Shown: positions 20,264 through 37,107 of the stretch, in pieces
How positions within the stretch are numbered: position 1 is the first letter of the stretch
Layout of the letters: each line of letters opens with the position of its first letter
Assembly: GCA_965214605.1 (NCBI GenBank)
Contig: OZ243961.1
Coordinates: 896,001-960,000, forward strand
Length of the DNA stretch: 64,000 nt
Direction of reading: 5' to 3'
From: an uncultured Candidatus Binatia bacterium
GTDB lineage: Bacteria; Desulfobacterota; Binatia; Bin18
The notes under the pieces: model-generated
Databases searched by the model: none
Told to the model about the DNA's origin: nothing
The model's input: only the letters and a program-made list of their open reading frames with translations
Position numbers and translations under genes: made by a program

Positions 20264-20368
20264 GTTGGCTCAACCTCTTGTTGGAACATCCTGCGGGGAC
20301 GTACTTGCGAGCTTCCAAGGCCGACCGGTGTGAGTTGGCTCAACCTCTTGTTGGAACATCCTGCGGGG
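20264..20368. repeat. Two perfect 35-bp direct repeats separated by 35 bp
   Basis: GTTGGCTCAACCTCTTGTTGGAACATCCTGCGGGG at 20264-20298 and 20334-20368. Confidence 0.9.
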
Positions 20369-22387: not shown

Positions 22388-22960
22388 CTAGGGGGCAGGG
22401 TTGACGTGGGGTGGGGAGAGGGGCGTCCACACCTTATCCTGGGGTGACTTGCCAACCAGTGCCACCAGGGCGGCATCTACGATGCCTGCCAAGGCACTTT
22501 CGGGATCATAGTCGATCACCTGTTTGAGTTTCAGACACAAGGGCGGATTGCGGCAGTTTAATTCTGATGCCAATGGCAGCCAAATTTCCGCCCCGCGCTC
22601 TTCCGCCAATGCCACCCAGGGCGGCGTACCGTGCTTCAGCTGGTTCCCCCACAGGACGTGGTATTCCGTCAGGGCATGGGCGGCGGTCATACACTCCGAT
22701 TTCAGAAGACGGCTTTGCCAGGTTTCATCCCAATGGGGCCAGATATGCCATTCGCCAGCCTCGCCAAACAGACGGAGATCGCTGACCCGGGTCCAATCGG
22801 GTTGTACATTCGGAGGCCAGCAGATTCCGTTCGACTGTACCACGCCAAAGCCGATAAAGCCGGGTTCCTGTAACAAGATCCAAGCCGTTTTACGAGAGGT
22901 CACATCGGACAGGCGCGAACAGATCAAGGTTTCGTTGAGTTCTGTAAGCGTGTCAGGCAT
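22388..22960 (-). CDS. csx19: Type III-D CRISPR protein Csx19
   Basis: DLRLFGEAGEWHIW, HVLWG, QVIDYD pattern; position after the RAMP genes. Confidence 0.75.
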   Translation of the reverse strand: MPDTLTELNETLICSRLSDVTSRKTAWILLQEPGFIGFGVVQSNGICWPPNVQPDWTRVSDLRLFGEAGEWHIWPHWDETWQSRLLKSECMTAAHALTEYHVLWGNQLKHGTPPWVALAEERGAEIWLPLASELNCRNPPLCLKLKQVIDYDPESALAGIVDAALVALVGKSPQDKVWTPLSPPHVNPAP

Positions 22961-22973
22961 TGGTGATCCCTTC

Positions 22974-24437
22974 TTAGACGGGTCGGCGTGAGCCGACAGG
23001 CCGATTGGAATAGTCCCTGGCCTTCTTGACACAACATTCAAGGAATAAGGCATTATCCTTATCTTTGACGTCAATTCCGCCGTTCCCGCTATTCCGCAAT
23101 TCCCACTCAGGCTTTGGCAAACCGCGCTCAGGATCTATTAGCCGCAAGTACGCTTTGATGCCCTTCAGGGTGCCGCGGCCATTGCTCGTTTCTCCGCCAA
23201 GCGCGGCGTGGCCGTGCCAGAAGTCGCGCAGGGTCAAGAGCAACAAGCCGATTTCTGCGTCGTCAGGCTCCTCCAACGTCAGCGTCAGCCGGATGTGACG
23301 TTCAGGCTTTTTCGGAAAAATCGGTTCCTCGTCAAACAAGGCGCTCGGCAGGCTGCCACCGGTAAACCGATCAATGGCAACACGATGCTGCCGACGTGAT
23401 TCCACATGCTCCACCAGACGTTCCTCAATCCGTACCCGGCTTGCCCACACATCCTTTTGCCGACTTGTGGATTGTTGCTCATGGATGGGCCCGAACATTT
23501 CGCAAACCGCGTCCTTGTCCTCGTGTTTTTTGCGCCAACCGATGGTATTCGCAATCAGGGCAGCACGATGTCGGAACGCACCGGCGAAGGAAGTACCGGG
23601 AACAACGGGCTGTCCATTGGATTGCAGATGAACCATCTCCGGGTCCTTCGGTTTACCGGATGAATTGCGGATTAACAGGGAGGTGCGCAGCTCAAATTCC
23701 ACTTCAATGTGAAAATATCGCCGGCGGTCGGGCAATGGGTGTGGCTTCAGGCAGCTCTCAGGGCGGGACCAGGCATCGTCACGTAACCACGCCATGACAT
23801 CCTCTGGGTTGTTCATGCACAATTTGCGTATGTCCCAAGCTGCCACCTTGCCGCGTCCATAGCCGCGGCGGGTACGTGCGCCCAAGCGGATGTCGCCTTG
23901 CTGGAACCCGTACAAGAGAGCCAAAAACAACTTCTCCAGTTCAGCGTCGTTTTCTCCCTGACGAATAATACACTCCAGACACAACTCAAACTCGGCACCG
24001 CGTTCGACAACTTCCACATCGAATTTTGCTCCTACAGCAGCGGAACCAGACCGGGCATTCACACGCACCCCGTCGCGAATTATCGTCTTCACCGTTTTCT
24101 GCCTACAGGCAGCATCAGCCACGGTCAAGGCGCTCATGGTGTCATCTTTGCCCGCTCCACCGAAGAATTGTTTGATCTCCTGCGGTTCATTCTCCTCCTT
24201 GATGTAGTCCTCCCAAGCTAAACTCTGCCGGGCCAGAAAACTCCGTGCGACACCAACGATCGACGCGGCCGGAATAAAGGGGCGTCTATCCGCATCCTGC
24301 AAGAGGCACATATCCGCTACTCCGGTTTCGTCACCCCCAAAGTGGGCTGCACTGTGCAGTTTCCAGGTGCCACGGGCATACAGACGGCGCACAACGGCAT
24401 CGGCGGCTACTGTCATTGCGGTCAGCGTATTCACCAT
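22974..24437 (-). CDS. cas7: Cas7-Cas7 double RAMP (Csm3-like x2)
   Basis: Two RAMP units: PFIPAASIVG...LGARTRRGYG and PVVPGTSFAGAFR...VAIDRFTGG...LGGETSNGRG. Confidence 0.9.
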   Translation of the reverse strand: MVNTLTAMTVAADAVVRRLYARGTWKLHSAAHFGGDETGVADMCLLQDADRRPFIPAASIVGVARSFLARQSLAWEDYIKEENEPQEIKQFFGGAGKDDTMSALTVADAACRQKTVKTIIRDGVRVNARSGSAAVGAKFDVEVVERGAEFELCLECIIRQGENDAELEKLFLALLYGFQQGDIRLGARTRRGYGRGKVAAWDIRKLCMNNPEDVMAWLRDDAWSRPESCLKPHPLPDRRRYFHIEVEFELRTSLLIRNSSGKPKDPEMVHLQSNGQPVVPGTSFAGAFRHRAALIANTIGWRKKHEDKDAVCEMFGPIHEQQSTSRQKDVWASRVRIEERLVEHVESRRQHRVAIDRFTGGSLPSALFDEEPIFPKKPERHIRLTLTLEEPDDAEIGLLLLTLRDFWHGHAALGGETSNGRGTLKGIKAYLRLIDPERGLPKPEWELRNSGNGGIDVKDKDNALFLECCVKKARDYSNRPVGSRRPV

Positions 24438-24487
24438 GATGCCGTCCTCATCTTGTTGCTGTATTTTCCGACAGAATCACCTTCGTC

Positions 24488-26893
24488 CTAAATCCGCTGT
24501 CGCCGGTGTAATGCCGTCAGTAGATGATCAAGGAACACTGTGCACATGGTCGTGCTATCGTCTCGCACTAACTCGGCGACCATGGCTTGGCACATATCAG
24601 AGTCGTGATCCTTGACAAGCTCTTGGACACGCTCTGTAATCAATTCCTGAGTTAAGGACTCGGGGGCAGTCCAAGCCTTCTCGAACAATTGATGCAGTGT
24701 TATTTGATTCGGCAACCCCGAGAGATCACGTGTATCAATCCGATAATCCGAAAGTTGTTCCTTTGCCGGATCACGCAGTTTTTTTAAACTCTCCACGGGC
24801 GAGTCCTGTTGAAAAAACAAACGCAACCGTCCAAGGAGCGAATTGCTCGGAAAATTCTTGCTCGGTATCTGCTTGGAGATAAGCATGGCACGCTGCTGCA
24901 TCTCTGCCAAGCAACGCGTTCGCACAACGCCCCGCAGAATATCCCGGGGTATCTTCGAGTCAGGCGCCTCGGGGATATCTAGTCTTTCGGGATCGTCAAG
25001 CGGTGTTTCTTTTTTCCCCGTCAATTCGAGGCTGCCCTGACGATTGACGGCAATGCGTCCCATACCCTCTCCCTTACGCAGCCCCAGGCCATCGTGCTCC
25101 AGTAGGAAGAGTACTCCTTGTCGGGGGGCCCGTTGCATGTCGAATACAAAAACACTGCCGGCAGCAATAGCAGGCCACTGCTGCCGTGGCAGCCGCAGGT
25201 GGGTGTGATATCCGCCAACCAGTTCCGTGCGGGTATAACTGTGCGAAAGTTTTAGTTTCGTTGCAGAGGCGGTATCCAGACCAAGGGCTTCGGCCAACTC
25301 ACGCTCCGGAAAACGCGCTTCGGAGTGCCCTTGGTCATTGACAGTCAACAAGGGGGAGAGAGTGGTAATGATCAAACGATTGTCAAGAACCGGCGGCATG
25401 ATCTTGGAGGGACACTGATCAACGAATCCGTCCCACTCGCTGGGCATCTTGTTCAGGGCAAGCGGTGTCTCATCAATCCATTCAAATTTTGCCTCGCCGT
25501 ACTGTGCGCTGCGCGAGCGTCCGATCCCTATTGAGTTTACCCCCTGTAACCACGTTTGCAGAGCCTTGAGATCAATATCTGAGCCGAGTACGGCACCTTG
25601 AAACGACTGGCCAGCGCAGATGGCTTCATACATAAAGAACGCACCTCCATCTGCGACTTCTGCGCCTAGAGCACGTCCTTTGCGGCGATCACCAGCACGG
25701 GCATGGTGATAGTTGCGCTCCGTCTTAACCGCCTGTGTTTTCAAACTCCATTGCTCGATCTTGGCGTAGCGGCGATCAAGACGCTGTGTCTGTTCCTCGG
25801 TCGATTGTTCCACGAAATCTACCAAATGGTCATCGTTCTTGAGTTTGCGTATGGAGTGGGGAATGGGGATCATGCGCTGTGTCTCATCAAATACCTCGGG
25901 GTCATCCGCTTCCGGGTAGGCCGTCAGGAACCGCAAGCCCCCATCAAGAAAGGCGTGATGAAATTCCTTATCCGTTGGTGTATGGCCCGATTGACGTAGG
26001 TAGTGCCAAGCGGCAACCCCCAGTATGTGACCTCCGGGCACGTCCTGCCGGGTCATAACGGTATTCGGGTCACCATCTGCCACCGGGATAACCGCCGGTG
26101 CTGTTAAGGTCAGCCGATAGCGCAGCAAATGGGTGGGAGTTGGGCTGTTTGAACGGGGAGAGGAAACCGTCTGCTTCTTTGGCGTTTGGGATGGCTGAGC
26201 AGGGCTGTTCGCGGTTATTGATGGAAGCGCGTCGTTGCTCAGGGCCTGTCCGGTCAAGTCGCATTCTTGACCGCCCGCGTCGCGGGCAAGCAGGCGGCAA
26301 CAGACCTTTCCGAGACCGCGTGTGCGTGCCGTTCCTATGTGTTGCAGAGCGGCGGCACCCAGACTCAATGCCTTGAGCAGTGCTTCGTCAGGAGGCTCAA
26401 CAAAGCGCAAAGGAGCACGAAATACCAGGCCCGCTTGTAGGGTGCGGGTAAGGCGCAGAGTATTTTCACGCGCCGCACCGGTCTGGCGGTCAATGGCGGT
26501 TTGGGTACGTATGTCGGCAAAGTGTTGCACGATGTCGTCAGGGTGCAGTTTTTGAATTTTGTGATGTTGCAGGTAGGCCAACCAGGGCTTTAAGGATGGT
26601 GCCTCCTGCAACTCTGCATTGGCGATATATAGGCTGGCGTCCCCATCACCGGGTTTTTGCCCCGGCTCACCGAAAATTTGATCTACCGGTATTGACGACT
26701 GTCTATTCAAAGCCCACGCCTCAGCAACATCGCGATAGGCTTCTCGCCACAACCCTTTGAGACGCCTCCCCGGGAGAATGGGCAGCCCCACTTCATCAAA
26801 GGCCACGTCTCGGTCAACCAAGCCCACACGTCCTTCACCGGCAGCGGACGTGAGCGACGATTGCAGTGTGATCTGCAAAACATAATCCGTCAT
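24488..26893 (-). CDS. csx10: Cas7-Cas5(Csx10)-Cas11 fusion
   Basis: GLVDRDV..DEVGLPILPGRRLKG, IGTARTRGLG, IGRSRSAQYG, GLGLRKGEGMGR, helical tail PSNSLLGRLR. Confidence 0.85.
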   Translation of the reverse strand: MTDYVLQITLQSSLTSAAGEGRVGLVDRDVAFDEVGLPILPGRRLKGLWREAYRDVAEAWALNRQSSIPVDQIFGEPGQKPGDGDASLYIANAELQEAPSLKPWLAYLQHHKIQKLHPDDIVQHFADIRTQTAIDRQTGAARENTLRLTRTLQAGLVFRAPLRFVEPPDEALLKALSLGAAALQHIGTARTRGLGKVCCRLLARDAGGQECDLTGQALSNDALPSITANSPAQPSQTPKKQTVSSPRSNSPTPTHLLRYRLTLTAPAVIPVADGDPNTVMTRQDVPGGHILGVAAWHYLRQSGHTPTDKEFHHAFLDGGLRFLTAYPEADDPEVFDETQRMIPIPHSIRKLKNDDHLVDFVEQSTEEQTQRLDRRYAKIEQWSLKTQAVKTERNYHHARAGDRRKGRALGAEVADGGAFFMYEAICAGQSFQGAVLGSDIDLKALQTWLQGVNSIGIGRSRSAQYGEAKFEWIDETPLALNKMPSEWDGFVDQCPSKIMPPVLDNRLIITTLSPLLTVNDQGHSEARFPERELAEALGLDTASATKLKLSHSYTRTELVGGYHTHLRLPRQQWPAIAAGSVFVFDMQRAPRQGVLFLLEHDGLGLRKGEGMGRIAVNRQGSLELTGKKETPLDDPERLDIPEAPDSKIPRDILRGVVRTRCLAEMQQRAMLISKQIPSKNFPSNSLLGRLRLFFQQDSPVESLKKLRDPAKEQLSDYRIDTRDLSGLPNQITLHQLFEKAWTAPESLTQELITERVQELVKDHDSDMCQAMVAELVRDDSTTMCTVFLDHLLTALHRRQRI

Positions 26894-26896
26894 TCC

Positions 26897-28543
26897 TCAT
26901 CCCTCTTTGCCTCCATCACCGGTTGCCGGCGAGGATGTCGGCTTCGTCTCTATATAGAAATCAATTGCCTCAAGCGGATCGAAATACGGTGTCGTGCAAT
27001 CTGGAGGATCTCCACCTGTAAAGCCTGTGCCGCGCACGTCTGACGGCGGCAGCTTTATCCCACGCCATTGTGCGCCCTCGACGAAACGTTTGGTTGCAAC
27101 CGATCCCTGGGTTAGAACCTGGAGAAGCTCTTTGGCACGGCTGCGGGGCCATTGCGGCGACTGGAACGCTTTCAAAATCGCGACGAACTCACCCCATTTT
27201 TCTGGTACTTGGTAGGGTCGCTGATGTAATGTTTGTCCTTCGAGACTGCGATATTGTGTCTCTCTAAGGACGGAAATTGATCGGGTGGCACCTTCTTGGA
27301 TGATCTGAAAATCCAGCCAACTGCCGGCTCCCTCGTTCCCCGTCTGTTTTTCCTCCCGGCGGCGTTTCTTGGCCAATCCGCAGAGTTCATCGGCAAAGCC
27401 GTAAGCACGGGCAAAGGGAAATTTCGTGGGCACAATGGCCACTCCTGCACAGGCGTCAACGGATTTGTCCTCGTCCAAAACTCTGATCCTGCCCTTGGCA
27501 AATTCCTCCAGATAGAAAGCCGCTAGATCAAGCCCCAAGCGACCGTCGCAGACAAACGTCAGATCGTCACCGCCGTACACAATGGGACGCAGAGGAAAGA
27601 TTTGTTCGTCCTTCAGCGACAGGACATCTTTCAGGTACGGCAGGGCATCTTGTAGATACTTCAAGGTTTTCTCTAAGGCCAAGTGGGACAGATGCGACAC
27701 AGAGGCCGAAAACGCCCGGACGTGATGAAGAAAATCAGCATCACCCTGGTCGTTGCCTATCACCCGATTGAGCAGTTCTCCCATCCCGTTACCGTCGGCA
27801 TGCACCACGGCAATATGCGACTGTCCCTCACTGCCACCTAATTTATCAAGTTCAATAGCAAAGCGTTGTCCTTGCTTCAGAATCGATCTAAATTCCCCTG
27901 TAATGGCGTTTTGCGCAGCACCCGGCTGACGTTCAGAGCCAACTTCCTTTTGCTTGCAGGCCGCGGATCGAGATATCCACTGGTTCTCCTCGTATTGTTC
28001 TTGACTGGGCTCGCTCGCCGGGAGGCCCGTAGTGGTGCAAGTGCGAACGACGGGTAAGCCGTGTAATGCGGCCCCAAACGGCAATGCTTCTTCGCAACGG
28101 GCCAAACCCTTCAATGCGGCACGATACGCCTTGGACAATGATCCGTTGACCTCCCCATAGCCAACGGCCACGCGCAGTCCTGGGGCATTTACGAGTAATT
28201 CGCGGCTCCATGCCGAGACGGTCTTGTTGGCGGTTTCACGGTCTTTGAACAGCAGAGCAGCATTGCCCCCACCTACGTAGAGGAGATTGACATCTTTAGT
28301 CGTGTCCGCCGGCTTTTCAGGTTGAGATATTGAGGAATTTTTTTGGTACGCATCCCATGCAGTCGTGTCAATGGTGCATCCCGTTCGGCGCACAGCCCCG
28401 GTCAAGCCTTTGTCAAGCCAGTGTTTTGCCAGATAGGATGCACCGATGTTCTCTTTCAGGCGGTTGCTCTGAAAGATATACCGCTGAATACCCGCCGTGC
28501 CAAAGACCACGACACATTGACCTTTACCGATAGAAATTGACAT
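26897..28543 (-). CDS. cas10: Cas10 without HD domain
   Basis: GIQRYIF..NRLKENIGAS, YVGGGNA, VHADGNGMG, IVYGGDD; ~548 aa from ATG 28543. Confidence 0.92.
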   Translation of the reverse strand: MSISIGKGQCVVVFGTAGIQRYIFQSNRLKENIGASYLAKHWLDKGLTGAVRRTGCTIDTTAWDAYQKNSSISQPEKPADTTKDVNLLYVGGGNAALLFKDRETANKTVSAWSRELLVNAPGLRVAVGYGEVNGSLSKAYRAALKGLARCEEALPFGAALHGLPVVRTCTTTGLPASEPSQEQYEENQWISRSAACKQKEVGSERQPGAAQNAITGEFRSILKQGQRFAIELDKLGGSEGQSHIAVVHADGNGMGELLNRVIGNDQGDADFLHHVRAFSASVSHLSHLALEKTLKYLQDALPYLKDVLSLKDEQIFPLRPIVYGGDDLTFVCDGRLGLDLAAFYLEEFAKGRIRVLDEDKSVDACAGVAIVPTKFPFARAYGFADELCGLAKKRRREEKQTGNEGAGSWLDFQIIQEGATRSISVLRETQYRSLEGQTLHQRPYQVPEKWGEFVAILKAFQSPQWPRSRAKELLQVLTQGSVATKRFVEGAQWRGIKLPPSDVRGTGFTGGDPPDCTTPYFDPLEAIDFYIETKPTSSPATGDGGKEG

Positions 28544-28559
28544 AGAAGCATCCTTAATT

Positions 28560-29657
28560 TCATTTCCAATATAAGTCTCGGCGCAGGTAACGTCCAAAAT
28601 GTCGAGATAGTTGTTTCCATTTCTTCTTTCCCCAGACTTGCAAGGGCAGCTTTTCACTGCCCGTTTCATCCTGCAATTCTGCTTCGACCCGCTCTATTGC
28701 CTTAGGATCATAGTTTGCACACAGCACTATGGCACGCGCTTCATCACCGCCGAGTTGTCGCGCCCGTAGAATAGCCTCCATGCCTTTTTCTTTGATCGTG
28801 TTTTGACAAAAATCAGTGGTGCATGAAACAACAACAATTTGATACCCCAGTACTGCAACTACATCGAGTTCAAAAGGCTTAACCTCTTGATTTCCCTCTC
28901 CAGCCCGCCGGACGTACACTGTGTGGAAAAGCTCACAATTACGTCGAGATTCATTTTCTTCTGAAATTCGCTGTAGGGCTTCCTCAAAGGCAGCGTATGC
29001 ACCGTACTCAAGCCAAAGGGGATTTTTACAGCGATCCTGGAAAAGCGCTTGACGGCCCGCTGTTAATTGTGCTTGATCCGGCGTTGCGGGGCCTGGGCAC
29101 TCTTTCTTATGGGAAGCACTTCTCTGCCAATATGTGTGCTCAAATGGTCCGATCGTAAAACCGTTGAGAAGAGCAATGGTCTTAAGACGTGCATCAACTT
29201 TTTTGCGGGTATCTCCTACAAGTACCCCGTTCCGACTCCTGATTGTTGGTGCTGAAGTGCGCCCCGGATCCAGGTAGGACGCATCTATTTGGACCGCCCG
29301 ATTGTTTCGCAGCGTGGCCTCAAGGGCGGCAACGGTTTCCACGCCCATTGCTTGGGTACCACCGGTGTAGTGGATGTGCAAATTAGTGAGGGTGTTGACG
29401 GGATTAGTTGGGTCATTCGACATAGCTTCTTTAATGTCCCTCCGTATCACCTTGGGATCTCCCGCCGACGTTAGGATGGAGCTAAGAAAAGTGGCACCTT
29501 CGCAATGACGCTTCAGCCGCTCTTCTTCAGCCTCCGTGCCCGTCGTACGCACAAATCGCACCTGAACAGGCTGTGGCAATTTGTCTTTCAAATGATGCCA
29601 AGCCACCCAGACGGGCAGCGGATTGGTCCCGACCGTAAGAATAAGTTGCGTTCCCAT
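28560..29657 (-). CDS. CARF plus restriction-endonuclease-like (DUF1887; Card1/Can2-like) effector
   Basis: LTVGTNPLP, HYTGGTQAM (CARF); WLEY, FELDVVAVLGYQIVVVSCTT, RARQLGGDEAR. Confidence 0.75.
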   Translation of the reverse strand: MGTQLILTVGTNPLPVWVAWHHLKDKLPQPVQVRFVRTTGTEAEEERLKRHCEGATFLSSILTSAGDPKVIRRDIKEAMSNDPTNPVNTLTNLHIHYTGGTQAMGVETVAALEATLRNNRAVQIDASYLDPGRTSAPTIRSRNGVLVGDTRKKVDARLKTIALLNGFTIGPFEHTYWQRSASHKKECPGPATPDQAQLTAGRQALFQDRCKNPLWLEYGAYAAFEEALQRISEENESRRNCELFHTVYVRRAGEGNQEVKPFELDVVAVLGYQIVVVSCTTDFCQNTIKEKGMEAILRARQLGGDEARAIVLCANYDPKAIERVEAELQDETGSEKLPLQVWGKKKWKQLSRHFGRYLRRDLYWK

Positions 29658-29699
29658 GACGATTTTCTCCGTGTGAGTGAACGAGAAGTAAAGGCTCTT

Positions 29700-29852
29700 G
29701 GACGACGGCAACTACCCAACGGGTCAACCAGTGACGGCGCAACAAATGGAGAGTATTTCGCTCAAGCGGGATACGTTCCACGGCGACTGGAATTACAGCC
29801 CTGCACCAAGAGGAGACCTGCAAATAACCAATTTATTTTGGCGGGATGCCCA
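29700..29852 (+). mobile_element. ISAzo13-family transposase 3' scar
   Basis: YPTGQPVTAQQMESISLKRDTFHGDWNYS matches the C-terminus of this family. Confidence 0.7.
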
Positions 29853-29859
29853 ACCTGAC

Positions 29860-32415
29860 TTATGGGTTGTAAGGCAATCCTTTTTTGGCCGTCACTTCCG
29901 GGAGCGCGACCTTCTTACCCTTCTTATTTTGTGCACCTCTCTCATTATGCGTAAACCATTTAAAGTTCTCGCCTTCCGGGTTCGGGTTGGGTCGCAGACG
30001 AGGATAGTGAATGGGCCCGTCTTCCTTCGGACCTCTTAGAACTTGCTTTAACCCCTTGATGAAAGACAAGGCGTCATAAGTGTTCTCGACGCTGGACCCA
30101 GGGGAGGTGTATGCAGCTACCATGCCGGCTTTGAAGGCCTGAATATGGGTGTTTCGTCGATCGTCATCCAGCTTTGCGGGCAAAGACGCATTAAAGGCGG
30201 CATAGTACTCTTCTTTCCAGTCTTTACCGGTGCCAAGCGGCAGACACCCGTTTACGCATCGTTCCTCATCAACTTCCATCCTCACGCTGCCAAAACCCAA
30301 GGGCTTGCCATACCCCAGCCTGAAGTAATGATCTTCGGGAAGCGACAGCAGCCACAGCAATGCGCCGACCTCTTCGGGTTGCAGATTTTGCATGTACAAA
30401 GTCGCCTTGAAAACGGTAGCAGGTTTGATCCAGCCTGTGATGGATCGGTTCTGAGAATCGGTTTGCGGCTGACCATTTGCCCCATTGGGGCGGCGGTATT
30501 CCTGGTATCGACCGTTTGTCTTGCGTTGTGTTCGATCCTCAACCGACGGCTTCCAATAGTCCAGGGCCTGGATGACTTCCAATCCTTTGTGGTGCCAGTA
30601 TTGCTTGCGCCCCCGCAAGCCCTTGTCTTTGCTATAGCCGGCGTCCTGCTTGCTAATTCCGTCGTTTTGCGGATTACCCCGCTCATCCTCAGCAACGTAG
30701 AAACGGCCCTGTGCCGGTTTCGGTTGTCCCAGGATCGTCAATGGCATGGTTTGGCCATCCTCAAAGCGTTCGATGATGCTTGGGCGTGGGCCATCCTCAC
30801 AGACGACACGTATACGGCCCTTGTAGCCTCCGTCACTTCCTTGGCCTTGTAGTGTCCACCCGAACAACCGGTCCGCGGGGGACAACTCACTCAGGTTCTT
30901 GGCCGGACGAAGCGAGGGGTGAAGTAGGGCTTCTGGACTCTCCTCATACAACTCGCGGGAGATCATGATTGGAAAGAGGTCCTCAATGCCTGTGATCTTT
31001 TCTTTCTTGAATCGGCAGCGGGCATACACCATATCACCCGAGCGCAGTTCGATTGCGTCAGGTGCGTCTCTGCCCCAACGATCCTGACGTTTACCATCCT
31101 GATAGAGATGCGGCGACCACGCCGTTTTGCCGGGATCCTTGCCAAATTTCTTCCACGCTCTTACAGAACGACCTTCAGGATCTTTACGCTCAAGAATATC
31201 GCTCTCGGAGTGTGCATCCCGATAGCTCTGAATACGCATGCGCCAAGCCTCTTTGAGACTATCAGTCACGGGATACGTACATCCCATCGGGTTGAAGAAA
31301 ATCCGCTCATCATGTTTGTTACCCATGTTTTCATTGGTGATCAAAATGCGACCCTTGACGACTTTACGCAGCGGGTTGTTAGGATTAAGAGGAGCATAAT
31401 ACGATTGCCTACTGCTGGAACGAGTCGGCGGTGGGTTCGGACCCCATAGGTCTTTCCCGGTACAAGGAGGAGCATTGGGAAACTGATCATCTTTTGGCCA
31501 GATATGGATCACTTTCCAGAACACATAGTCCTTGAACCAATTTTTATCTCCCCTTCGTGACACCTGATGTTGACAGAGAACGATTTCCGCCCACACCTCG
31601 TGACCGGTTTTTGGGCTGTATCCTCCTTCACATGTTGAATTTAGACTCCTGTGATAGCGCGTCAACATCGCGGCGTACATTGCCTTTTGCTCCGGGTTCG
31701 CATGTCGCTGTTGAGTTGGCCCTCGATTCGTAGCGGTGCTGGTTCCCGTATATAGACGGGCCACTAATTCCCCCTGCCTGCTTCCATCTTCAATAATCGC
31801 GGGAATGAGTTTCAGAGCTTCCCTCGTCTCCATACGATAACCCAACCGGTCGTTGTTGCGAAAACACGCATAGCGCGAGTTTGTCACCACCTCGTAGGCA
31901 TTGCGCAACATGCCGCGCAAGGACGATTCCGGCAGGTGATCGAGCATGTCGTAAATTTGATGCGCGCTTAAGGGTCGTTCTTTGTCACCAACATCGGGCA
32001 ACAGCAAGGGCGTGACCGTGGTCAGCTTGATGGGCAGATGACCTGTCCACAAGTCCGGCTGGAGAGACGCATGATCGAGATTGTGCTCCAGCGGATCGAA
32101 ATCACCGGCAAAATCCGGGCGGTGTGAGAGGAGAGGACGCGGTGGGGAGGGGATAAAAGTATATGGATTGTGAAAGTAGTCGTGTGTCTTGGAGGTGGGT
32201 GGAGCCGCTTGCAAGTGAACATTATGCGCTTCGAATCCGTCTTTCTTCTTTGTTGAAGACTCTTTATCAAAGACAACCGCCGCTCCCTCGACCAGAGCGT
32301 CCTTGTCGAATTCTATTGCACTGATGTGAAAGAAGATGTCCGGCCCGCCGGCATCGTCCACAATAAATCCGAAGCCTTGATCACCGAACCATTTCTTGAT
32401 CTTACCTGTTGCCAT
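29860..32415 (-). CDS. cas7: Cas7-insertion RAMP (TIGR03986-like) with N-terminal cold-shock domain, 851 aa
   Basis: MATGKIKKWFGDQGFGFI...DIFFHIS (RNP1/RNP2); FHNPYTF, SSLRGMLRNAYE, SPADRLFG, LRGRKQYWH, LGYGKPLGFGSV. Confidence 0.9.
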   Translation of the reverse strand: MATGKIKKWFGDQGFGFIVDDAGGPDIFFHISAIEFDKDALVEGAAVVFDKESSTKKKDGFEAHNVHLQAAPPTSKTHDYFHNPYTFIPSPPRPLLSHRPDFAGDFDPLEHNLDHASLQPDLWTGHLPIKLTTVTPLLLPDVGDKERPLSAHQIYDMLDHLPESSLRGMLRNAYEVVTNSRYACFRNNDRLGYRMETREALKLIPAIIEDGSRQGELVARLYTGTSTATNRGPTQQRHANPEQKAMYAAMLTRYHRSLNSTCEGGYSPKTGHEVWAEIVLCQHQVSRRGDKNWFKDYVFWKVIHIWPKDDQFPNAPPCTGKDLWGPNPPPTRSSSRQSYYAPLNPNNPLRKVVKGRILITNENMGNKHDERIFFNPMGCTYPVTDSLKEAWRMRIQSYRDAHSESDILERKDPEGRSVRAWKKFGKDPGKTAWSPHLYQDGKRQDRWGRDAPDAIELRSGDMVYARCRFKKEKITGIEDLFPIMISRELYEESPEALLHPSLRPAKNLSELSPADRLFGWTLQGQGSDGGYKGRIRVVCEDGPRPSIIERFEDGQTMPLTILGQPKPAQGRFYVAEDERGNPQNDGISKQDAGYSKDKGLRGRKQYWHHKGLEVIQALDYWKPSVEDRTQRKTNGRYQEYRRPNGANGQPQTDSQNRSITGWIKPATVFKATLYMQNLQPEEVGALLWLLSLPEDHYFRLGYGKPLGFGSVRMEVDEERCVNGCLPLGTGKDWKEEYYAAFNASLPAKLDDDRRNTHIQAFKAGMVAAYTSPGSSVENTYDALSFIKGLKQVLRGPKEDGPIHYPRLRPNPNPEGENFKWFTHNERGAQNKKGKKVALPEVTAKKGLPYNP

Positions 32416-32864
32416 CCGACTACCCCCTTCGTCTGACGGAACACCCAAGGGATTTCCCTTTCTCCCCAGACCCCACCCCGCAGCCTACACGCAAACACAC
32501 CGATGGGAAACATTAGCAATGTTGCCCAGACCGAGAAATCATCCCGCTCCCCGCACCAAGGAGGGGCTGAGCAGGTTGCTGAATCCGAAGCCGGTCCGGG
32601 GTGGCGTCCTTTCGCCCGGAATGACTGGTGCAGCCAGTATCGGATAGCCTGTCCGGCAAAACGACGGGGAAGTGGGGAGAAACTTGTAGAAAGATAAAAA
32701 CCATGCTGCTATAACGTGATCGCTGCAAGTAGACTGCCTGCTTGCGCAATGGTCAGGCGAGAGGGGGAGGCCAGCGATGCCTCACCGGCCTCCATTTGTG
32801 GAAAGCCGATTGAGGGAGAGGAGCACCAGAGATAGCGACGTGCACCATCGACACCCATGAAACC

Positions 32865-33080
32865 ATGCGGCAATTCGTGGCCACCGGTATCCCTGACAAG
32901 CAGGCAGAAGTCATTGTTGCCGCCATCAGCCGCGCGGCTTCCGAGATTGTCACCAGGGCCGACCTTGCCGTTGCCGAGTTGAAAGCCGATATGCTCAAGG
33001 TGGCCATCGGGGTTGCCGTCGGTATTGTGATTGTGATTGTCAACGCCAGCCTGACGATTACCTTGATCAAATTGCTCTGA
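32865..33080 (+). CDS. DUF1640-like small coiled-coil/TM protein (native start appears mutated)
   Basis: GIPDKQAEVIV, VTRADL, LKADMLK, hydrophobic tail; paralog at 44859. Confidence 0.55.
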   Translation: MRQFVATGIPDKQAEVIVAAISRAASEIVTRADLAVAELKADMLKVAIGVAVGIVIVIVNASLTITLIKLL

Positions 33081-33115
33081 ATCATCGGGGATTTTTCACA
33101 CCAGCGGGGCTTTCC

Positions 33116-34246
33116 ATGACTACTCCCCACACGCTTCTCTGTACCGTCGGCACCTGTCTGTTCCATTCCAACCTGTCCCGCCTCACCCGTGAGCCGCGGC
33201 CGAATTCCATCCGCGCTGCCTTGGCCCAGGCCTATGCCGAACAGGATTGGCCGGAAGTCGCGGCGCAACTGCACCACCTCCCCCCCACCGAGCGGCTGTG
33301 CGGGGCGGAGATCAACTCGGTGGCCGATCTTCTGAAACAGGACTACGTCGCCAAGGGCCGCCTGCACCTGCTGTATTCCGCTACGACGGACGGCGAACAC
33401 ATCGCCGCCGTGCTCGACGCCTACTTCGCCGCGGACGGCTGGCGGGTACAGACCCACCGGGTGGACGAATTGAGCGATCAGGACCCGAAGGCGTTTCGCA
33501 CCCGAGGGCTGCGCAACCTGGCAAAACTGTTCGGCGAGCGTGTCCGAGAGGCCGGCGCCGATTATTGCGCGATCAACGCCACCGGCGGCTATAAGGCCCA
33601 GATCGCCATTGCCGTGCTCATGGGTCAGGCGCTCGGCATTCCGGTGTATTACAAGCACGAGCGCTTCGACGCCATCATCCCGTTTCCGCCCATGCCGGTG
33701 GCGCTCGATTTTGCGCTCTGGCTGCGCGCCAGCGGCATGTTCATGGCGCTCAGCAAGCCTGACGCCTGTGAGCTGTGGGAGCAGTTCCGCGAGGATTGGG
33801 ACGAACGCTTTGAGCCGCTGATCAACCGGGTGAGGATCGGCGACAGCGATTATCTGGAACTCTCGGCGACCGGCCAGATTTTCCACGAGACCTTTCGATC
33901 CCGTTTTCAGCGGCGCAAGACCACCAGCCTGCCGCGCCCGGCCACAGCGGCTGAGAAACAGCGGCCCACTCTGGGTGATCACGGCTACGGGCAGGCGCGC
34001 GACCCCATTCTGCGGTTTCTGGAAAAACTCACCGACGAACGGCCGTACGTCCGCCTGTGCCACTCGACGTACTGGAACCCGGACCTGTCTGAAGTGAACC
34101 GGTTCCGGCGGGCGGGTGGGGAAGTCCAGGGCATCTACTCGAACGGATCCTGGTGCGTCAAGTTCAGGGTGCTCACGACAGCCGGTGAGCAGGACGACCT
34201 AGGTGTTGTCATGGCCGACCTCAACGAATGGTTGGCAGAAGCATAA
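33116..34246 (+). CDS. CRISPR-associated CARF protein (APE2256/TIGR02619-like) with wHTH and unassigned C-terminal domain
   Basis: LLCTVGT, CGAEINS, SATTDG, INATGGYKAQ, VYYKHERF, LSATGQIF. Confidence 0.85.
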   Translation: MTTPHTLLCTVGTCLFHSNLSRLTREPRPNSIRAALAQAYAEQDWPEVAAQLHHLPPTERLCGAEINSVADLLKQDYVAKGRLHLLYSATTDGEHIAAVLDAYFAADGWRVQTHRVDELSDQDPKAFRTRGLRNLAKLFGERVREAGADYCAINATGGYKAQIAIAVLMGQALGIPVYYKHERFDAIIPFPPMPVALDFALWLRASGMFMALSKPDACELWEQFREDWDERFEPLINRVRIGDSDYLELSATGQIFHETFRSRFQRRKTTSLPRPATAAEKQRPTLGDHGYGQARDPILRFLEKLTDERPYVRLCHSTYWNPDLSEVNRFRRAGGEVQGIYSNGSWCVKFRVLTTAGEQDDLGVVMADLNEWLAEA

Positions 34247-35336: not shown

Positions 35337-35480
35337 AATCTCCCATGGTCTGCGGACGGCGACGTGTAGGGAGCCCAGAGGCAGCACTCGCCATGCTCAA
35401 AGGAATCTACAAACCGATATTAGCAATATAGTCTTGCAATAATATAATTGCAAGATAACGTGATTTCCTGGAGGGTTTTT

Positions 35481-36587
35481 ATGGAAACGCAACGCATTGG
35501 GAGGCGAATCAAGGCATTGCGTGAGGAACGCCGCCTGTCACAGGGCGAACTTGCGCGCCTGTTCGGATTCAAGAACCGGCAAACCGTCTCGGCCATCGAA
35601 ACCGGCGCACGACGCGTCAAGGCAGAGGAACTTGTGCTCGCGGTGCAAAAGCTGGACGTGCCGCTGGACTATTTCACGGATCCCTTTCGTCTCGTTGGTG
35701 AAGGGCGCTTCTCATGGCGGCAAACCGGCATCGATGCCGAGCAGCTCAAGGCATATGAACGTCACGCCGGCAGTTGGTTGGCCGCCTTCTGTGTCCTGGC
35801 GCCGCAAGTGGGCCATGAAATGCCATTCCTGCGCCGGACGCTTGGCCTGACCCGCCGGTCGAGCTACGAGGACGCGATGCAGGCGGGCGAGCGGTTCGTC
35901 GCCGAGTTTGACCTCGGCAAGGCGCCTGCGGCGCGCCTGGGCGACATCATGCAGCGGGAACTCGGTGTCCTGGTGCTCATGGTAGATGCCTGCGAGGGGG
36001 TGTCGGGGGCCTCATGCCGGCTGCCCGACCTGGACGCGGTGCTGATTGCACGTCAGGAGGTTGAAGGTCGGCGTCATTTTGATCTCGCCCATGAACTGTT
36101 CCACTTGCTGACGTGGGACGCGCTGCCGCCGGCGTATGCGGAAGAGAGGCGGGAAACGGGCGGCAGTCGTGTGGAGCAACTTGCCAACAACTTTGCCGCC
36201 GCGGTGCTGATGCCGGAAAGCAGCGTGGATCAAGTCGATGATTGGCAACGTCTGAGCCGTGAAGAGCTGGTATCGTGTCTGAACACCCTGGCCGATGACT
36301 TATCCGTAACGTCTTCGGCGTTGAGATGGCGTCTGGTCGCACTCGATAAACTGAAGTCTGCGCAAGCCGGCGCGATCCCCGAAGCGGCGCTGCGCAACAA
36401 TGGACACGACACGCCGCGGGTTGATCCGCCTACCCTGTTCTCCAAACCGTTTATGGAAGTCATGGGCCTTGCCATCGACAAGGGCCATGTCTCGGTTCGG
36501 CGCCTGGCCGGCCTGCTTGATCTGACCCTTGAAGACCTCGCGGAACTGTTCGCAAGGCACAGCGTCGAGTATCCGGTCGACCTTTGA
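35481..36587 (+). CDS. XRE HTH plus ImmA/IrrE (DUF955) metallopeptidase
   Basis: LSQGELARLFG..RQTVSAIETGAR; RRHFDLAHELFH; EQLANNFAAAVLMP. Confidence 0.9.
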   Translation: METQRIGRRIKALREERRLSQGELARLFGFKNRQTVSAIETGARRVKAEELVLAVQKLDVPLDYFTDPFRLVGEGRFSWRQTGIDAEQLKAYERHAGSWLAAFCVLAPQVGHEMPFLRRTLGLTRRSSYEDAMQAGERFVAEFDLGKAPAARLGDIMQRELGVLVLMVDACEGVSGASCRLPDLDAVLIARQEVEGRRHFDLAHELFHLLTWDALPPAYAEERRETGGSRVEQLANNFAAAVLMPESSVDQVDDWQRLSREELVSCLNTLADDLSVTSSALRWRLVALDKLKSAQAGAIPEAALRNNGHDTPRVDPPTLFSKPFMEVMGLAIDKGHVSVRRLAGLLDLTLEDLAELFARHSVEYPVDL

Positions 36588-36593
36588 GACATC

Positions 36594-37107
36594 ATGGCGA
36601 AGCATCGCGGTCCCGTTTTCCTCGACACCAATGTCATTCTGGAATGTCATCGAGTGGAGGCGTGGCGTGCACTCGCAGGCGGTTATCGTCTGGAAACGGT
36701 TGCGGACTGTGTCGCCGAGACACAGTCCGGATACCAGCGCCGTCGCCCTGAGCATCAGATTGACCCATTCCGAACTGCGCGGCTCCCTCGCGGCGATTCA
36801 TTCCGTCGAAGACTGGGAGCGTGCCGAGTTGGCAGTCCTGGCGCCCGATATCGCGTTGGACAGAGGCGAGAAATCCCTTTGGGCTCACGCCCTGAACCGC
36901 AACGATCACTGGATGCTATGTGGGCCGGATAAAGCCAGCCTCCGCTTGGGTGTACGACTCGGCTTTCGCGAGCGGCTTGTGGCGTTGGAACAACTCCTCA
37001 ATGACATCGGCTATCGTCCCAGAACTTCTCTCAGAAGGAACTACACGAGAAAGTGGTTAGCGGAAACGTGTGCCGAGCTGGGTCCTTGCGGAAGGCCTGT
37101 GAACTGA
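36594..37107 (+). pseudogene. PIN-like domain protein, frameshifted at ~36765
   Basis: VFLDTNVILE then LDRGEKSLWAHA, CGPDKAS in the next frame. Confidence 0.65.

What the first reader, a model, noticed from the sequence alone, without database searches (positions are those of the whole stretch)
32170..32415. Cold-shock domain fused to the N-terminus of the Cas7-insertion subunit
Seen: a complete ~70-aa CSD with RNP1 (GFGFI) and RNP2 (DIFFHIS), joined in frame by a short linker to the FHNPY start of the RAMP. Known: CSDs melt RNA structure, and the Cas7-insertion subunit lies at the crRNA 3' end in III-Dv. Inference: a built-in RNA chaperone that opens structured targets or caps the crRNA. OB-fold fusions to RAMPs have been noted, but I know of no functional test.
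Basis: partly seen in the sequence, partly recalled or inferred. Interest (0 to 1): 0.7.

Follow-up and report, generated by a model that had tools for sequence, protein, structure and literature searches.

The report
Cold-shock domain on a CRISPR subunit
A type III CRISPR complex subunit that holds the guide RNA's 3' end carries a cold-shock RNA-binding domain on a flexible tether, and close relatives carry a different RNA-binding domain (an RRM) at the same spot, which points to a built-in RNA-catching arm.

Summary
The ORF at 29860-32415 (minus strand, 851 aa) starts with a canonical cold-shock domain (Pfam CSD, residues 3-67, E 2.3e-11). A 12-residue linker joins it in frame to a TIGR03986 / Cas7-insertion RAMP (272 bits, cut-off 161). 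The gene heads a complete III-Dv-type operon.

The fusion is neither a singleton nor an assembly chimera:
- By my own HMM labels, 62 of the 120 closest protein clusters carry the CSD and 53 carry an RRM_1 in the same place.
- Seven other genome loci with the CSD and five with the RRM keep the same operon.
- A contig from a second study spans the junction.

New here:
- CSD and RRM cassettes have been exchanged many times on near-identical cores (up to 92% core identity, with the break exactly at FHNPY).
- The wider family carries an unannotated N-domain that AlphaFold and structure comparison place with cold-shock-type OB folds. This is the domain left unresolved in the Synechocystis III-Dv cryo-EM structure.

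Most likely function (inferred, about 50%): a flexibly tethered single-stranded-RNA capture or chaperone module beside the exposed crRNA 3' seed.

Prior art: a 2006 table already listed a "CSP-like domain fused to RAMP". A deletion of the homologous Synechocystis domain exists, but its result is reported ambiguously.

Verdict: real, a new variant of a known kind, moderately interesting.

The parts
29860..32415 (-). Whole gene: CSD-linker-Cas7-insertion (TIGR03986) protein, 851 aa, stop codon included
   Evidence: ORF. Pfam and NCBIfam matches. Exact-sequence cluster P0001.
32423..32429 (-). Shine-Dalgarno-like AAGGGGG, 7 nt upstream of the ATG at 32415
   Evidence: Read from the sequence. Homologs cover the query from residue 1, which supports this start.
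32215..32409 (-). Cold-shock domain, residues 3-67
   Evidence: PF00313 E 2.3e-11, 43.8 bits, cut-off 27. PDB cold-shock proteins hit. AF2 gives five strands (E2-10, E15-20, E27-30, E46-53, E61-68) with block pLDDT 74-89.
32362..32376 (-). RNP1 motif GFGFI (residues 14-18)
   Evidence: Sequence. In 60 CSD-type homologs F15 is aromatic in 53/60, G16 is kept in 59/60, F17 is aromatic in 59/60 and I18 is kept in 58/60.
32320..32340 (-). RNP2 motif DIFFHIS (residues 26-32)
   Evidence: Sequence. F28 is aromatic in 60/60 and H30 is kept in 56/60.
32176..32211 (-). Linker QAAPPTSKTHDY (residues 69-80)
   Evidence: AF2 block pLDDT is 42-48 for residues 71-120. Mean identity to homologs is 29.6%, against 50.7% for the CSD and 67-69% for the core. 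Linker length in 64 CSD-type proteins is 6-49 residues, median 20.
32161..32175 (-). FHNPY, start of the RAMP core and the breakpoint of the CSD/RRM cassette exchange in relatives
   Evidence: F81, N83, P84 and Y85 are invariant and H82 is nearly invariant in alignment A1. In the pairs P0036/P0062 and P0103/P0117 identity begins exactly here.
30034..32166 (-). TIGR03986 / Cas7-insertion body, including the large insertion domain (about residues 226-486)
   Evidence: TIGR03986 272.1 bits, cut-off 161.35. 8s9t_E (Synechocystis Cas7-insertion) matches at E 2.1e-117.
28560..29654 (-). CARF + PD-(D/E)xK nuclease gene (probable cOA-activated effector), next gene in the operon
   Evidence: PADLOC Csx1 E 1.9e-52 and CARF4--CARF_PDDEXK E 3.5e-48. 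Present at this position in all 13 related operons checked.
26897..28669 (-). Cas10 (III-D type, GGDD present, no HD match reported). The true start is probably downstream of the listed ATG.
   Evidence: PADLOC Cas10d E 9.2e-118. Pfam Cas10 palm2. GGDD is in the translation. Homologs align from about residue 39.
24488..26893 (-). Cas7-Cas5(Csx10)-Cas11-type fusion subunit, 801 aa
   Evidence: RAMPs E 9.8e-18. Csx10 TIGR02674 E 4.1e-17, below its cut-off. Syntenic in relatives.
22974..24437 (-). Cas7-2x double RAMP subunit, 487 aa
   Evidence: RAMPs E 8.5e-44 with 2 stretches. Csx7 TIGR02581 108.2 bits against a cut-off of 108.05.
22388..23074 (-). Csx19
   Evidence: TIGR03984 E 6.7e-18, 65 bits, cut-off 35.
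33116..34246 (+). Divergently transcribed CARF protein (Cas_APE2256 / CARF7-DUF2103)
   Evidence: PF09651 E 3.3e-31. PADLOC CARF7--CARF_DUF2103 E 7e-118. The same family lies next to the cyanobacterial Cas7-insertion genes.

Best explanation
The gene encodes the Cas7-insertion subunit of a type III-Dv-like effector. This is the subunit that caps the crRNA 3' end and presents the 3' seed. Its N-terminus carries a canonical, functional-looking cold-shock domain on a short disordered tether.

Proposed mechanism (inferred): the CSD binds single-stranded RNA without sequence preference at the 'head' of the complex. There it catches transcripts, or holds the region at and 5' of the protospacer single-stranded, so that pairing with the exposed 3' seed starts faster. 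This would matter most on structured or scarce targets.

Shown: the domain's identity, conservation of its nucleic-acid-binding aromatic residues, the fusion's breadth, the operon, and its interchangeability with an RRM.
From the literature: the position of the subunit and of its N-terminal domain in the complex.
Inferred: RNA capture itself and its effect on targeting.
For: 1. The CSD is canonical, and its binding-face residues are kept in 60 fused homologs. W9 and F28 are aromatic in 60/60, F17 in 59/60, F15 in 53/60, and H30 is kept in 56/60. It is more conserved than the linker (50.7% against 29.6% mean identity).

2. The same position holds an RRM_1 with intact RNP2/RNP1 (IYVGN, KGFGFVEM) in 53 of the 120 closest clusters. 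CSD is found in 59 by precomputed Pfam and 62 by my HMMs.

3. The two unrelated ssRNA-binding folds have been exchanged repeatedly on closely related cores.
- 24 of 122 proteins have their nearest core neighbour in the other class. Examples: 92% core identity for P0036/P0062 against 59% to the nearest RRM-type core, and 86% for P0103/P0117.
- The identity break falls exactly at FHNPY.
- At least 20 label changes are forced by well-supported branches in a 250-row FastTree, and at least 13 in an IQ-TREE of 38 hand-picked rows.
- Outright loss is rare. Five of the 120 lack a domain, and two of those are N-terminally truncated calls.

4. The operon is otherwise the same in 7 CSD-type and 5 RRM-type genome loci.

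5. AF2 gives a confident five-stranded barrel followed by a low-confidence linker.

6. Literature passages:
- Cas7-insertion holds six exposed 3' nucleotides of the crRNA as a seed (PMC11026444).
- Its N-terminal 112 residues are flexible and unresolved (PMC11026444), and in the authors' model they form one side of the 'head' (bioRxiv 10.1101/2022.06.13.496011).

7. An analogous 3'-end subunit, Cmr1, promotes target RNA capture in III-B (abstracts of PMC5737701 and PMC4215187).
Against: - No binding or activity data exist for any CSD- or RRM-bearing member.
- The window's CSD has net charge -4 and only a 12-residue linker, among the shortest of a 6-49 range. Its reach is therefore limited.
- The bioRxiv text gives, as the reason for deleting the N-terminal 104 residues of the Synechocystis subunit, that they were unseen and (as printed) 'necessary for cleavage'. 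The sentence reads as if 'not necessary' was meant. If so, the homologous domain is dispensable for cleavage of a short target in vitro. The supplement is closed.
- The full-length AF2 model is poor overall (mean pLDDT 64.5, pTM 0.43). It says nothing reliable about where the CSD sits.
- The window has no adjacent CRISPR array, only a 2-repeat remnant. Activity of this particular copy therefore rests on arrays elsewhere in the genome.
Confidence: 0.5

Rival explanations
1. The N-terminal module handles the crRNA rather than the target. It would bind the 3' part of the pre-crRNA or intermediate during assembly and 3' trimming, or cap and protect the mature 3' end.
For: - The subunit sits at the crRNA 3' end.
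- Variants that have lost the insertion domain, which holds the 3' seed in Synechocystis, still keep the CSD or RRM (L009, L098, L101). Something at the 3' end may therefore be taken over by the N-domain.
- Cmr1 binds crRNA as well as target (abstract of PMC5737701).
Against: - In the solved complex the 3' end is already held by the insertion domain while the N-domain is disordered.
- Two unrelated folds with different binding geometries would have to serve the same fixed crRNA contact.
- The linker varies between 6 and 49 residues, which fits a loose tether better than a fixed cap.
Confidence: 0.17
2. The module is a regulatory or adaptor element. It might bind the operon's own mRNA leader for autoregulation, recruit host RNA enzymes (RNases, helicases), or be a surface contested by phage inhibitors. 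The last would explain the frequent cassette exchange.
For: - The exchange rate is high, the kind of turnover often seen at conflict interfaces.
- The fused RRM is 91-94% identical to a free-standing 97-aa RRM protein, so it could share that protein's partners.
- A Synechocystis III-Dv leader transcript is reported to interact with the RNA helicase CrhR (title only, search listing).
Against: - No partner is identified.
- The nucleic-acid-binding aromatic residues are what is conserved.
- No sigma-70-like promoter or special leader feature was found upstream.
- Upstream DNA is not conserved among the loci held.
Confidence: 0.13
3. The module binds single-stranded DNA. It would bind the non-template strand of the transcription bubble and so hold the complex at the transcribing invader.
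For: - Cold-shock domains bind ssDNA as well as RNA (Pfam names PF00313 a 'Cold-shock DNA-binding domain').
- That type III immunity is transcription-coupled is established knowledge, recalled and not tested here.
Against: - Classical RRM_1 domains are primarily RNA binders (recalled), yet they substitute freely.
- This Cas10 has no HD nuclease match, so there is no DNA-cleaving activity to position.
- The operon's effectors are CARF proteins.
Confidence: 0.1
4. The domain is a neutral passenger, a fusion without selected function.
For: - Some family members have no N-terminal domain (47 of 150 representatives by my labels, several of them fragments).
- The possible reading of the delta-104 result as 'not necessary'.
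Against: - Binding-face residues are conserved.
- The domain is more conserved than the linker.
- Across >=20 label changes in the clade, 115 of 120 clusters still carry a CSD or an RRM.
- The fusion is kept in 12 related operons.
Confidence: 0.05

Closest known systems
Cas7-insertion subunit of the Synechocystis sp. PCC 6803 type III-Dv complex (PDB 8s9t chain E; PMC11026444)
   Same: - Same family (E 2.1e-117; 36% identity over residues 81-851).
- Same partner genes: Cas10, Cas7-Cas5-Cas11, Cas7-2x, Csx19 and a Cas_APE2256 CARF neighbour.
- Both have an N-terminal domain of about 70-110 aa before FHNPY.
   Different: - The Synechocystis N-domain matches no Pfam family and has no GFGFI-type RNP motif in its translation. 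It belongs to the 'common' type (my HMM E 3.4e-12), modelled here as a cold-shock-like barrel.
- The window has a canonical CSD.
- The gene order differs: Cas7-insertion comes first here and last in Synechocystis.
- A CARF-PD-(D/E)xK gene is inserted after it.
- No adjacent array or cas6.
[quoted passage not shown] 2006 (PMC1462988, table seen)
   Same: The same kind of architecture, recorded 20 years ago.
   Different: - It is only a table line, without subunit identity, distribution or function.
- I could not check whether Rrub02003211 belongs to TIGR03986.
Cmr1 of type III-B complexes
   Same: A 3'-end subunit that promotes target RNA capture and binds crRNA (abstracts of PMC5737701 and PMC4215187). 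This is the functional analogy for the proposed mechanism.
   Different: - Cmr1 is a separate RAMP-fold subunit, not a CSD or RRM_1 appended by a linker.
- No homology was tested or claimed.
Bacterial cold-shock proteins (CspA/CspB)
   Same: Same Pfam family, same RNP1/RNP2 aromatic residues, same five-strand barrel.
   Different: - It is fused, not free-standing.
- The scores against equivalog models (CspE 35.3 bits against 120, CspA 32.8 against 130) are far below their cut-offs.
- It is only 53% identical over 32 residues to the genome's own 67-aa Csp.
Non-canonical cold-shock domains of Unr
   Same: They are the best structural matches of the family's 'common' N-domain model (6y6e_A Z 7.7, rmsd 2.5 A over 64 residues; 4qqb_Y Z 7.6).
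   Different: - Z stays under 8, which the tool calls middling.
- No sequence relation: hhalign to the fused CSDs gives 12.6% probability.
- This concerns relatives, not the window's own canonical CSD.
Cas7.4 domain with insertion of type III-E Cas7-11 and of type III-D2 Cas7x3
   Same: Homologous RAMP start and insertion-bearing Cas7 (NF041225 matches residues 54-200; PDB Cas7-11 chains about E 1e-14 and 9wxh_D E 6.3e-17).
   Different: There the domain is internal to a fusion protein, preceded by an interdomain linker instead of a free N-terminal RNA-binding module (passage of PMC13294483).

Membership tests
Cold-shock domain (Pfam PF00313) | Profile score above the curated gathering cut-off | tested here: met
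   43.8 bits against a cut-off of 27, E 2.3e-11, residues 3-67 covering profile positions 2-64 of 66.
Cold-shock domain (Pfam PF00313) | RNP1 and RNP2 motifs with their aromatic and histidine residues | tested here: met
   GFGFI at 14-18 and DIFFHIS at 26-32, conserved in 53-60 of 60 fused homologs. The motif names are recalled from the cold-shock literature.
Cold-shock domain (Pfam PF00313) | Five-stranded beta-barrel (OB) fold | tested here: met
   The AF2 model has strands E2-10, E15-20, E27-30, E46-53 and E61-68, with block pLDDT 74-89. This is a prediction, not a solved structure.
Cold-shock domain (Pfam PF00313) | Binds single-stranded RNA/DNA | not testable with these tools
   Needs EMSA or anisotropy with the purified domain.
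TIGR03986 / Cas7-insertion subunit | NCBIfam equivalog score above its cut-off | tested here: met
   272.1 bits against 161.35, covering model positions 1-567 of 568.
TIGR03986 / Cas7-insertion subunit | Homology to the structurally defined Cas7-insertion, including the insertion domain | tested here: met
   8s9t_E E 2.1e-117 in two stretches: query 74-257 and 353-850. Residues 258-352 were not aligned.
Type III-Dv effector module | Gene set cas10 + cas7-cas5-cas11 fusion + cas7-2x + csx19 + cas7-insertion | tested here: met
   All five are present on one strand at 22388-32415. The fusion subunit's Csx10 and Cas11 parts rest on sub-threshold or absent family hits plus synteny.
Type III-Dv effector module | Gene order as in Synechocystis (cas7-insertion last) and an adjacent cas6, adaptation genes and CRISPR array | tested here: not met
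   - Cas7-insertion is first here and an extra CARF-nuclease gene follows it.
- Only a 2-repeat remnant lies at 20264-20368.
- Arrays with cas1 lie about 0.76 and 3.0 Mb away.
- No PF01881 Cas6 hit in the genome. Other Cas6 families were not searched.
- Relatives L003 and L004 do have adjacent arrays.
Type III-Dv effector module | crRNA-guided RNA cleavage with a fixed-length crRNA and a 3' seed | not testable with these tools
   Known only for the Synechocystis complex.

The most novel reading that the evidence does not exclude
The N-terminus of Cas7-insertion is a hot-swappable RNA-binding cassette site. Across the family it holds a cold-shock-like barrel, a canonical CSD, an RRM_1 or a basic tail. 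In one clade, CSD and RRM alleles are exchanged by recombination at the FHNPY boundary so often that they behave like a maintained polymorphism.

The driver would be conflict or niche: phage inhibitors or decoy RNAs aimed at the capture arm, or different target-RNA structure or temperature regimes. The cassette would then set the sensitivity of type III immunity to structured or rare transcripts. The RRM cassettes may be drawn repeatedly from housekeeping rbp genes.
Probability: 0.2. Interest if true: 0.8.

Novelty: new variant of a known kind. Interest (0 to 1): 0.6.

Why it matters
- The III-Dv structure left 112 N-terminal residues of Cas7-insertion unexplained. This locus and its relatives say what that position is for: in hundreds of natural variants it holds a recognisable single-stranded-RNA binder, and evolution treats CSD and RRM as equivalent there.
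- This gives a concrete, testable hypothesis for how a fixed-stoichiometry type III complex finds its seed match on folded or scarce transcripts.
- It offers natural, pre-validated fusion points (the FHNPY boundary) and modules for engineering RNA-targeting III-Dv and III-E tools.
- It is also a clean case of repeated domain-cassette exchange inside a defence gene.

Tried and rejected
- Tandem Repeats Finder on the window: 0 rows. The repeat finder gave only a 2-copy 35-nt repeat. It occurs nowhere else in the genome, so I do not call it a working array.
- hhalign of the 'common' N-domain against the fused CSDs: probability 12.6%, E 0.0023 over 53 columns. Against RRM: 0.3%. Too weak to claim sequence homology.
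- Foldseek of the common N-domain model against PDB: 0 matches at E <= 0.001. The weak top rows were mostly OB folds. Only the VIA-align wide search gave usable ranks, and its Z values stay under 8.
- Metagenome scan with the RRM-type protein P0062: all 19 loci matched only residues 1-86, that is RRM proteins. The one I inspected (L059) is a free-standing 97-aa ORF. No RRM-type operon was found this way. RRM-type operons came from the genome search instead.
- Upstream 400 nt of 13 loci: no DNA similarity between CSD- and RRM-type loci beyond one 68-nt 72% match. None of those loci is a close CSD/RRM pair, so the recombination flank question stays open.
- Promoter scan of 32300-33200: 0 sigma-70-like sites.
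- Sequencing runs: no RNA holder listed, so nothing can be said on expression. X6 and X7 gave only short pieces that do not cover the CSD.
- Pfam on all 150 representatives at once was over the size limit. I scanned 10 chosen ones instead.
- Complex prediction was not used. I claim no protein-protein contact, and it takes no RNA.
- Rejected readings: assembly chimera, gene-calling fusion of two ORFs (open frames are continuous in the window and in 12 loci), and singleton.
Full report
**Observation.** The window holds one uninterrupted minus-strand ORF, 29860..32448.
- From the ATG at 32415 it encodes 851 aa. An AAGGGGG run precedes the ATG by 7 nt.
- Residues 3-67 match Pfam CSD (PF00313, E 2.3e-11, 43.8 bits, cut-off 27). 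They also match solved cold-shock proteins (3cam_A E 2.7e-8, CspA 1mjc_A E 6.2e-7).
- A 12-residue linker (QAAPPTSKTHDY) leads to FHNPY at residue 81.
- Residues 84-794 match the equivalog TIGR03986 (272.1 bits, cut-off 161.35).
- The best solved relative is chain E of 8s9t, the Cas7-insertion subunit of the Synechocystis III-Dv complex (E 2.1e-117).

**Surroundings.** The gene is the first of a six-gene minus-strand operon:

| Order | Gene | Window coordinates | Evidence |
|---|---|---|---|
| 1 | CSD-Cas7-insertion | 29860-32415 | |
| 2 | CARF + PD-(D/E)xK nuclease | 28560-29654 | PADLOC Csx1 E 1.9e-52, CARF_PDDEXK E 3.5e-48; |
| 3 | Cas10 of the III-D kind, with GGDD and no HD match | 26897-28669 | PADLOC Cas10d E 9.2e-118; |
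| 4 | 801-aa RAMP/Csx10-type fusion | 24488-26893 | |
| 5 | Double Cas7 (Cas7-2x) | 22974-24437 | |
| 6 | Csx19 | 22388-23074 | |

- A CARF protein of the Cas_APE2256 / CARF7-DUF2103 kind is transcribed divergently at 33116-34246.
- The gene set is that of type III-Dv. The order is not: in Synechocystis and Nostoc plasmids Cas7-insertion is last.
- No array adjoins the operon. There is only a two-copy 35-nt repeat at 20264-20368.
- The genome has four arrays elsewhere. Two have 37-nt repeats ending ..ATTGAAAC, like the arrays next to the homologous operons in L003 and L004, and each has a cas1 beside it.

**Not a singleton, not a chimera.**
- A search with the whole protein found 394 relatives at E <= 0.001. 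Of the 120 best clusters listed, 59 carry precomputed PF00313, 53 carry PF00076 (RRM_1) and 8 carry neither (my count of the table).
- With HMMs that I built from the N-termini the split is 62 CSD, 53 RRM, 5 none. Two of the five (P0025, P0088) start inside a CSD or an RRM, that is they are truncated calls. The full-length query favours CSD-bearing hits, so these shares are not family-wide frequencies.
- The same operon, in the same order, was found in 13 related loci.
  - Seven carry a CSD-type first gene: L003, L004, L005, L006, L008, L009, L099.
  - One (L007) has its N-terminus cut by the contig end.
  - Five carry an RRM-type first gene: L095, L096, L097, L098, L101.
  - Where the tool gave a record title, the loci come from Latescibacterota and Poribacteria assemblies (L003-L009).
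  - L100 and L083 repeat L006 and L005 and are not counted.
- A 584-nt contig of run X5, a different study from X1, lies on 31906-32489 without a differing letter and bridges the junction.

**Is the domain kept functional?**
- In 60 aligned CSD-type proteins (A1) the residues of the nucleic-acid-binding face are held:

| Residue | Conservation |
|---|---|
| W9 | aromatic 60/60 |
| F15 | aromatic 53/60 |
| G16 | 59/60 |
| F17 | aromatic 59/60 |
| I18 | 58/60 |
| F28 | aromatic 60/60 |
| H30 | 56/60 |

- Mean identity to the window protein is 50.7% in the CSD, 29.6% in the linker, 57.8% in the insertion domain and 67-69% in the RAMP core.
- AlphaFold2 on A1 gave a weak model overall (mean pLDDT 64.5, pTM 0.43). 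It has a confident five-stranded barrel for residues 1-70 (block pLDDT 74-89) and low confidence for residues 71-120 (42-48).
- So the model shows a folded module on a tether. It does not tell where the module sits.

**The unexpected part: CSD and RRM are exchanged.**
- The RRM-type N-termini are classical RRM_1 domains (MNIYVGNVPY...KGFGFVEM...).
- They are 91-94% identical over 83-87 residues to a free-standing 97-aa RRM protein on a metagenome contig. The median over 59 modules is 78%.
- In a FastTree of 250 core sequences, all CSD and RRM rows fall in one clade of 123 rows (61 CSD, 54 RRM, 8 none; support 98). N-domain and linker were removed, and 17 rows with cores under 620 or over 900 aa were dropped.
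- Within that clade the labels are interleaved. CSD needs 23 changes and RRM 21, and at least 20 of each are forced by branches with support of 95 or more.
- Independently of any tree, 24 of 122 proteins have their most similar core in the other class:

| Pair | Core identity across classes | Best core identity within own class |
|---|---|---|
| P0062 (RRM) / P0036 (CSD) | 92% | 59% |
| P0103 / P0117 | 86% | 62% (P0103), 64% (P0117) |
| P0048 / P0081 | 81% | 61% |
| P0034 / P0050 | 80% | 61% (P0034), 64% (P0050) |
| P0032 / P0028 | 81% | 67% (P0032), 78% (P0028) |

- In the two pairs aligned residue by residue, similarity starts exactly at FHNPYTFVP. Everything upstream, domain plus linker, is unrelated.
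- An IQ-TREE of 38 rows, which I picked to include such pairs and so is not a random sample, gives ten CSD/RRM sister pairs with SH-aLRT of 95 or more. At least 13 changes are forced.
- The five related genomes checked mostly hold one full-length copy of this clade, and the window's genome holds one. So the two types are alternatives, not paralogues kept side by side, as far as this small sample shows.

**The wider family.**
- A core-only search of 1.84 billion representatives gave 3646 hits at E <= 0.001 and 765 at E <= 1e-30.
- Of the best 150, my labels are 92 'common' N-domain, 7 RRM, 4 CSD and 47 none. Several of the 47 are fragments, and some carry basic low-complexity tails. The 'common' HMM was built from these same rows, so that count is partly circular.
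- The common domain matches no Pfam family in 6 of 6 proteins scanned: P0132, P0136, P0168, P0200, Synechocystis and Nostoc.
- The Synechocystis N-terminus belongs to it (E 3.4e-12; Nostoc E 3.9e-21).
- AlphaFold2 of one member was confident for residues 1-70 (pLDDT 91-94). This was L034 residues 1-113, with 70 aligned relatives. Its strand order (E3-10, E16-21, E27-30, short helix, E52-58, E61-67) mirrors the window's CSD.
- Foldseek found nothing at E <= 0.001.
- The wide VIA-align search ranked cold-shock domains of Unr first (6y6e_A Z 7.7, rmsd 2.5 A, 64 residues; 4qqb_Y Z 7.6). Below them came EF-P, NusA S1, Lin28, RNase R and M. tuberculosis CspB (Z 5.3).
- The tool warns that Z under 8 is middling. 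So I call the domain cold-shock-like/OB by prediction, not proven.

**Mechanism.**
- From passages of PMC11026444: Cas7-insertion caps the crRNA 3' end. Its insertion domain exposes six 3' nucleotides as a seed that must pair first. The N-terminal 112 residues were invisible, 'likely due to flexibility'.
- The earlier preprint places this small domain on one side of the 'head', opposite the insertion domain.
- My reading puts three things together: a canonical ssRNA binder, a disordered tether, and free substitution by an unrelated ssRNA binder.
- The best reading is a non-specific RNA-capture or chaperone arm next to the seed. It is analogous in role to Cmr1 of III-B (abstracts). This step is inferred.
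- Rivals are crRNA 3'-end handling, a regulatory or conflict interface, ssDNA binding, and a neutral passenger.
- The crRNA-handling rival gains from the insertion-less variants L009, L098 and L101, which keep the cassette.

**Against my reading.**
- There is no biochemistry for any member.
- This copy has a short linker and an acidic CSD (net charge -4).
[quoted passage not shown] The sentence makes sense only if 'not necessary' was meant. In that case the homologous domain is dispensable for in-vitro cleavage of a short target. Supplementary Fig. 13 could not be read.

**Prior art and novelty.**
- Makarova et al. 2006 list 'CSP-like ... fused to RAMP domain' (Rrub02003211) and an S1-RAMP fusion in a table. 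I could not test whether that protein is a TIGR03986 member.
- Full-text searches gave the following:

| Search terms | Papers found |
|---|---|
| 'cold shock domain' + 'type III' + Cas7 + CRISPR | 0 |
| 'cold shock' + 'type III-D' | 2, both unrelated |
| TIGR03986 | 1 |
| 'Cas7-insertion' | 3 |
| 'III-Dv' | 23 |
| all1473 | 3 |

- The main III-Dv paper contains no 'cold', 'RRM' or 'OB-fold'.
- The bare fusion is therefore known.
- I found three things in none of these searches: its assignment to the Cas7-insertion subunit, the CSD/RRM cassette exchange, and the cold-shock-like nature of the unresolved N-domain.
- Subscription papers and supplements were not searchable.

**Distribution.**
- In the window's own phylum 25 of 401 sampled genomes (G000 included) have a TIGR03986 match at E <= 1e-20, and the one same-family genome has none.
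- Of the six phylum loci my script could parse, two had the common domain and four had none.
- In the phylum of G003, 13 of 176 genomes match the RRM-type protein at E <= 1e-50. Both cassette types occur there.
- The patchy spread, together with integrase and transposase-like remnants beside the operon, fits a mobile defence island.

Noticed in passing
window 28560-29654 (-): A CARF + PD-(D/E)xK nuclease gene (Can2/Card1-like by PADLOC names) sits between cas7-insertion and cas10. It holds this position in all 13 related operons. The cyanobacterial III-Dv operons lack it there.
   Followed up: partly
L009:10001-11602; L098:8606-10351; L101:8383-10215: Variants of the subunit lack the large insertion domain (about residues 226-486 of the window protein) but keep the N-terminal CSD (L009) or RRM (L098, L101). 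In Synechocystis that insertion domain holds the crRNA 3' seed.
   Followed up: partly
L059:5962-6294 (+): A free-standing 97-aa RRM protein is 91-94% identical over 83-87 residues to the RRM cassettes fused to Cas7-insertion. This suggests capture from, or exchange with, housekeeping rbp genes.
   Followed up: partly
window 20264-20368 (+): Two exact copies of a 35-nt repeat 70 nt apart, found nowhere else in the genome. This may be a remnant of an array downstream of csx19. Transposase-like and integrase-N fragments lie around it.
   Followed up: partly
G000:C1 about 1,687,759-1,691,264 and 3,919,518-3,929,875: Two CRISPR arrays (25 and 77 repeat copies counted) have 37-nt repeats ending ..ATTGAAAC, each with a cas1 beside it. 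They are candidate crRNA sources for the window's array-less effector. An I-E-like array (96 copies) lies at about 2.302-2.308 Mb and a fourth array (17 copies) at about 0.529 Mb.
   Followed up: partly
window 26897-28669 (-): The listed Cas10 ORF overlaps the upstream gene by about 110 nt. Homologs align only from about residue 39, so the real start is probably an internal Met. No HD-domain match was reported.
   Followed up: no
L012 (G000:C1:2146697-2146879) and L014 (G000:C1:3496614-3496769): Two more CSD matches in the same genome lie inside long open frames (289 and 416 aa). These are further CSD fusions of unknown kind.
   Followed up: no
window 35448-36587 (+) and 36594-36932 (+): An HTH + M78 (ImmA/IrrE-like) peptidase gene is followed by a small ORF whose start (VFLDTNVILE) looks PIN-like by eye. 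This may be a regulator/toxin pair next to the defence operon.
   Followed up: no
P0251, P0164, P0194 (family representatives): Some Cas7-insertion proteins have, in place of a folded N-domain, arginine/glycine/glutamine-rich basic tails of 38-56 residues before FHNPY. Tail-only N-termini have a median of 18% K+R.
   Followed up: partly
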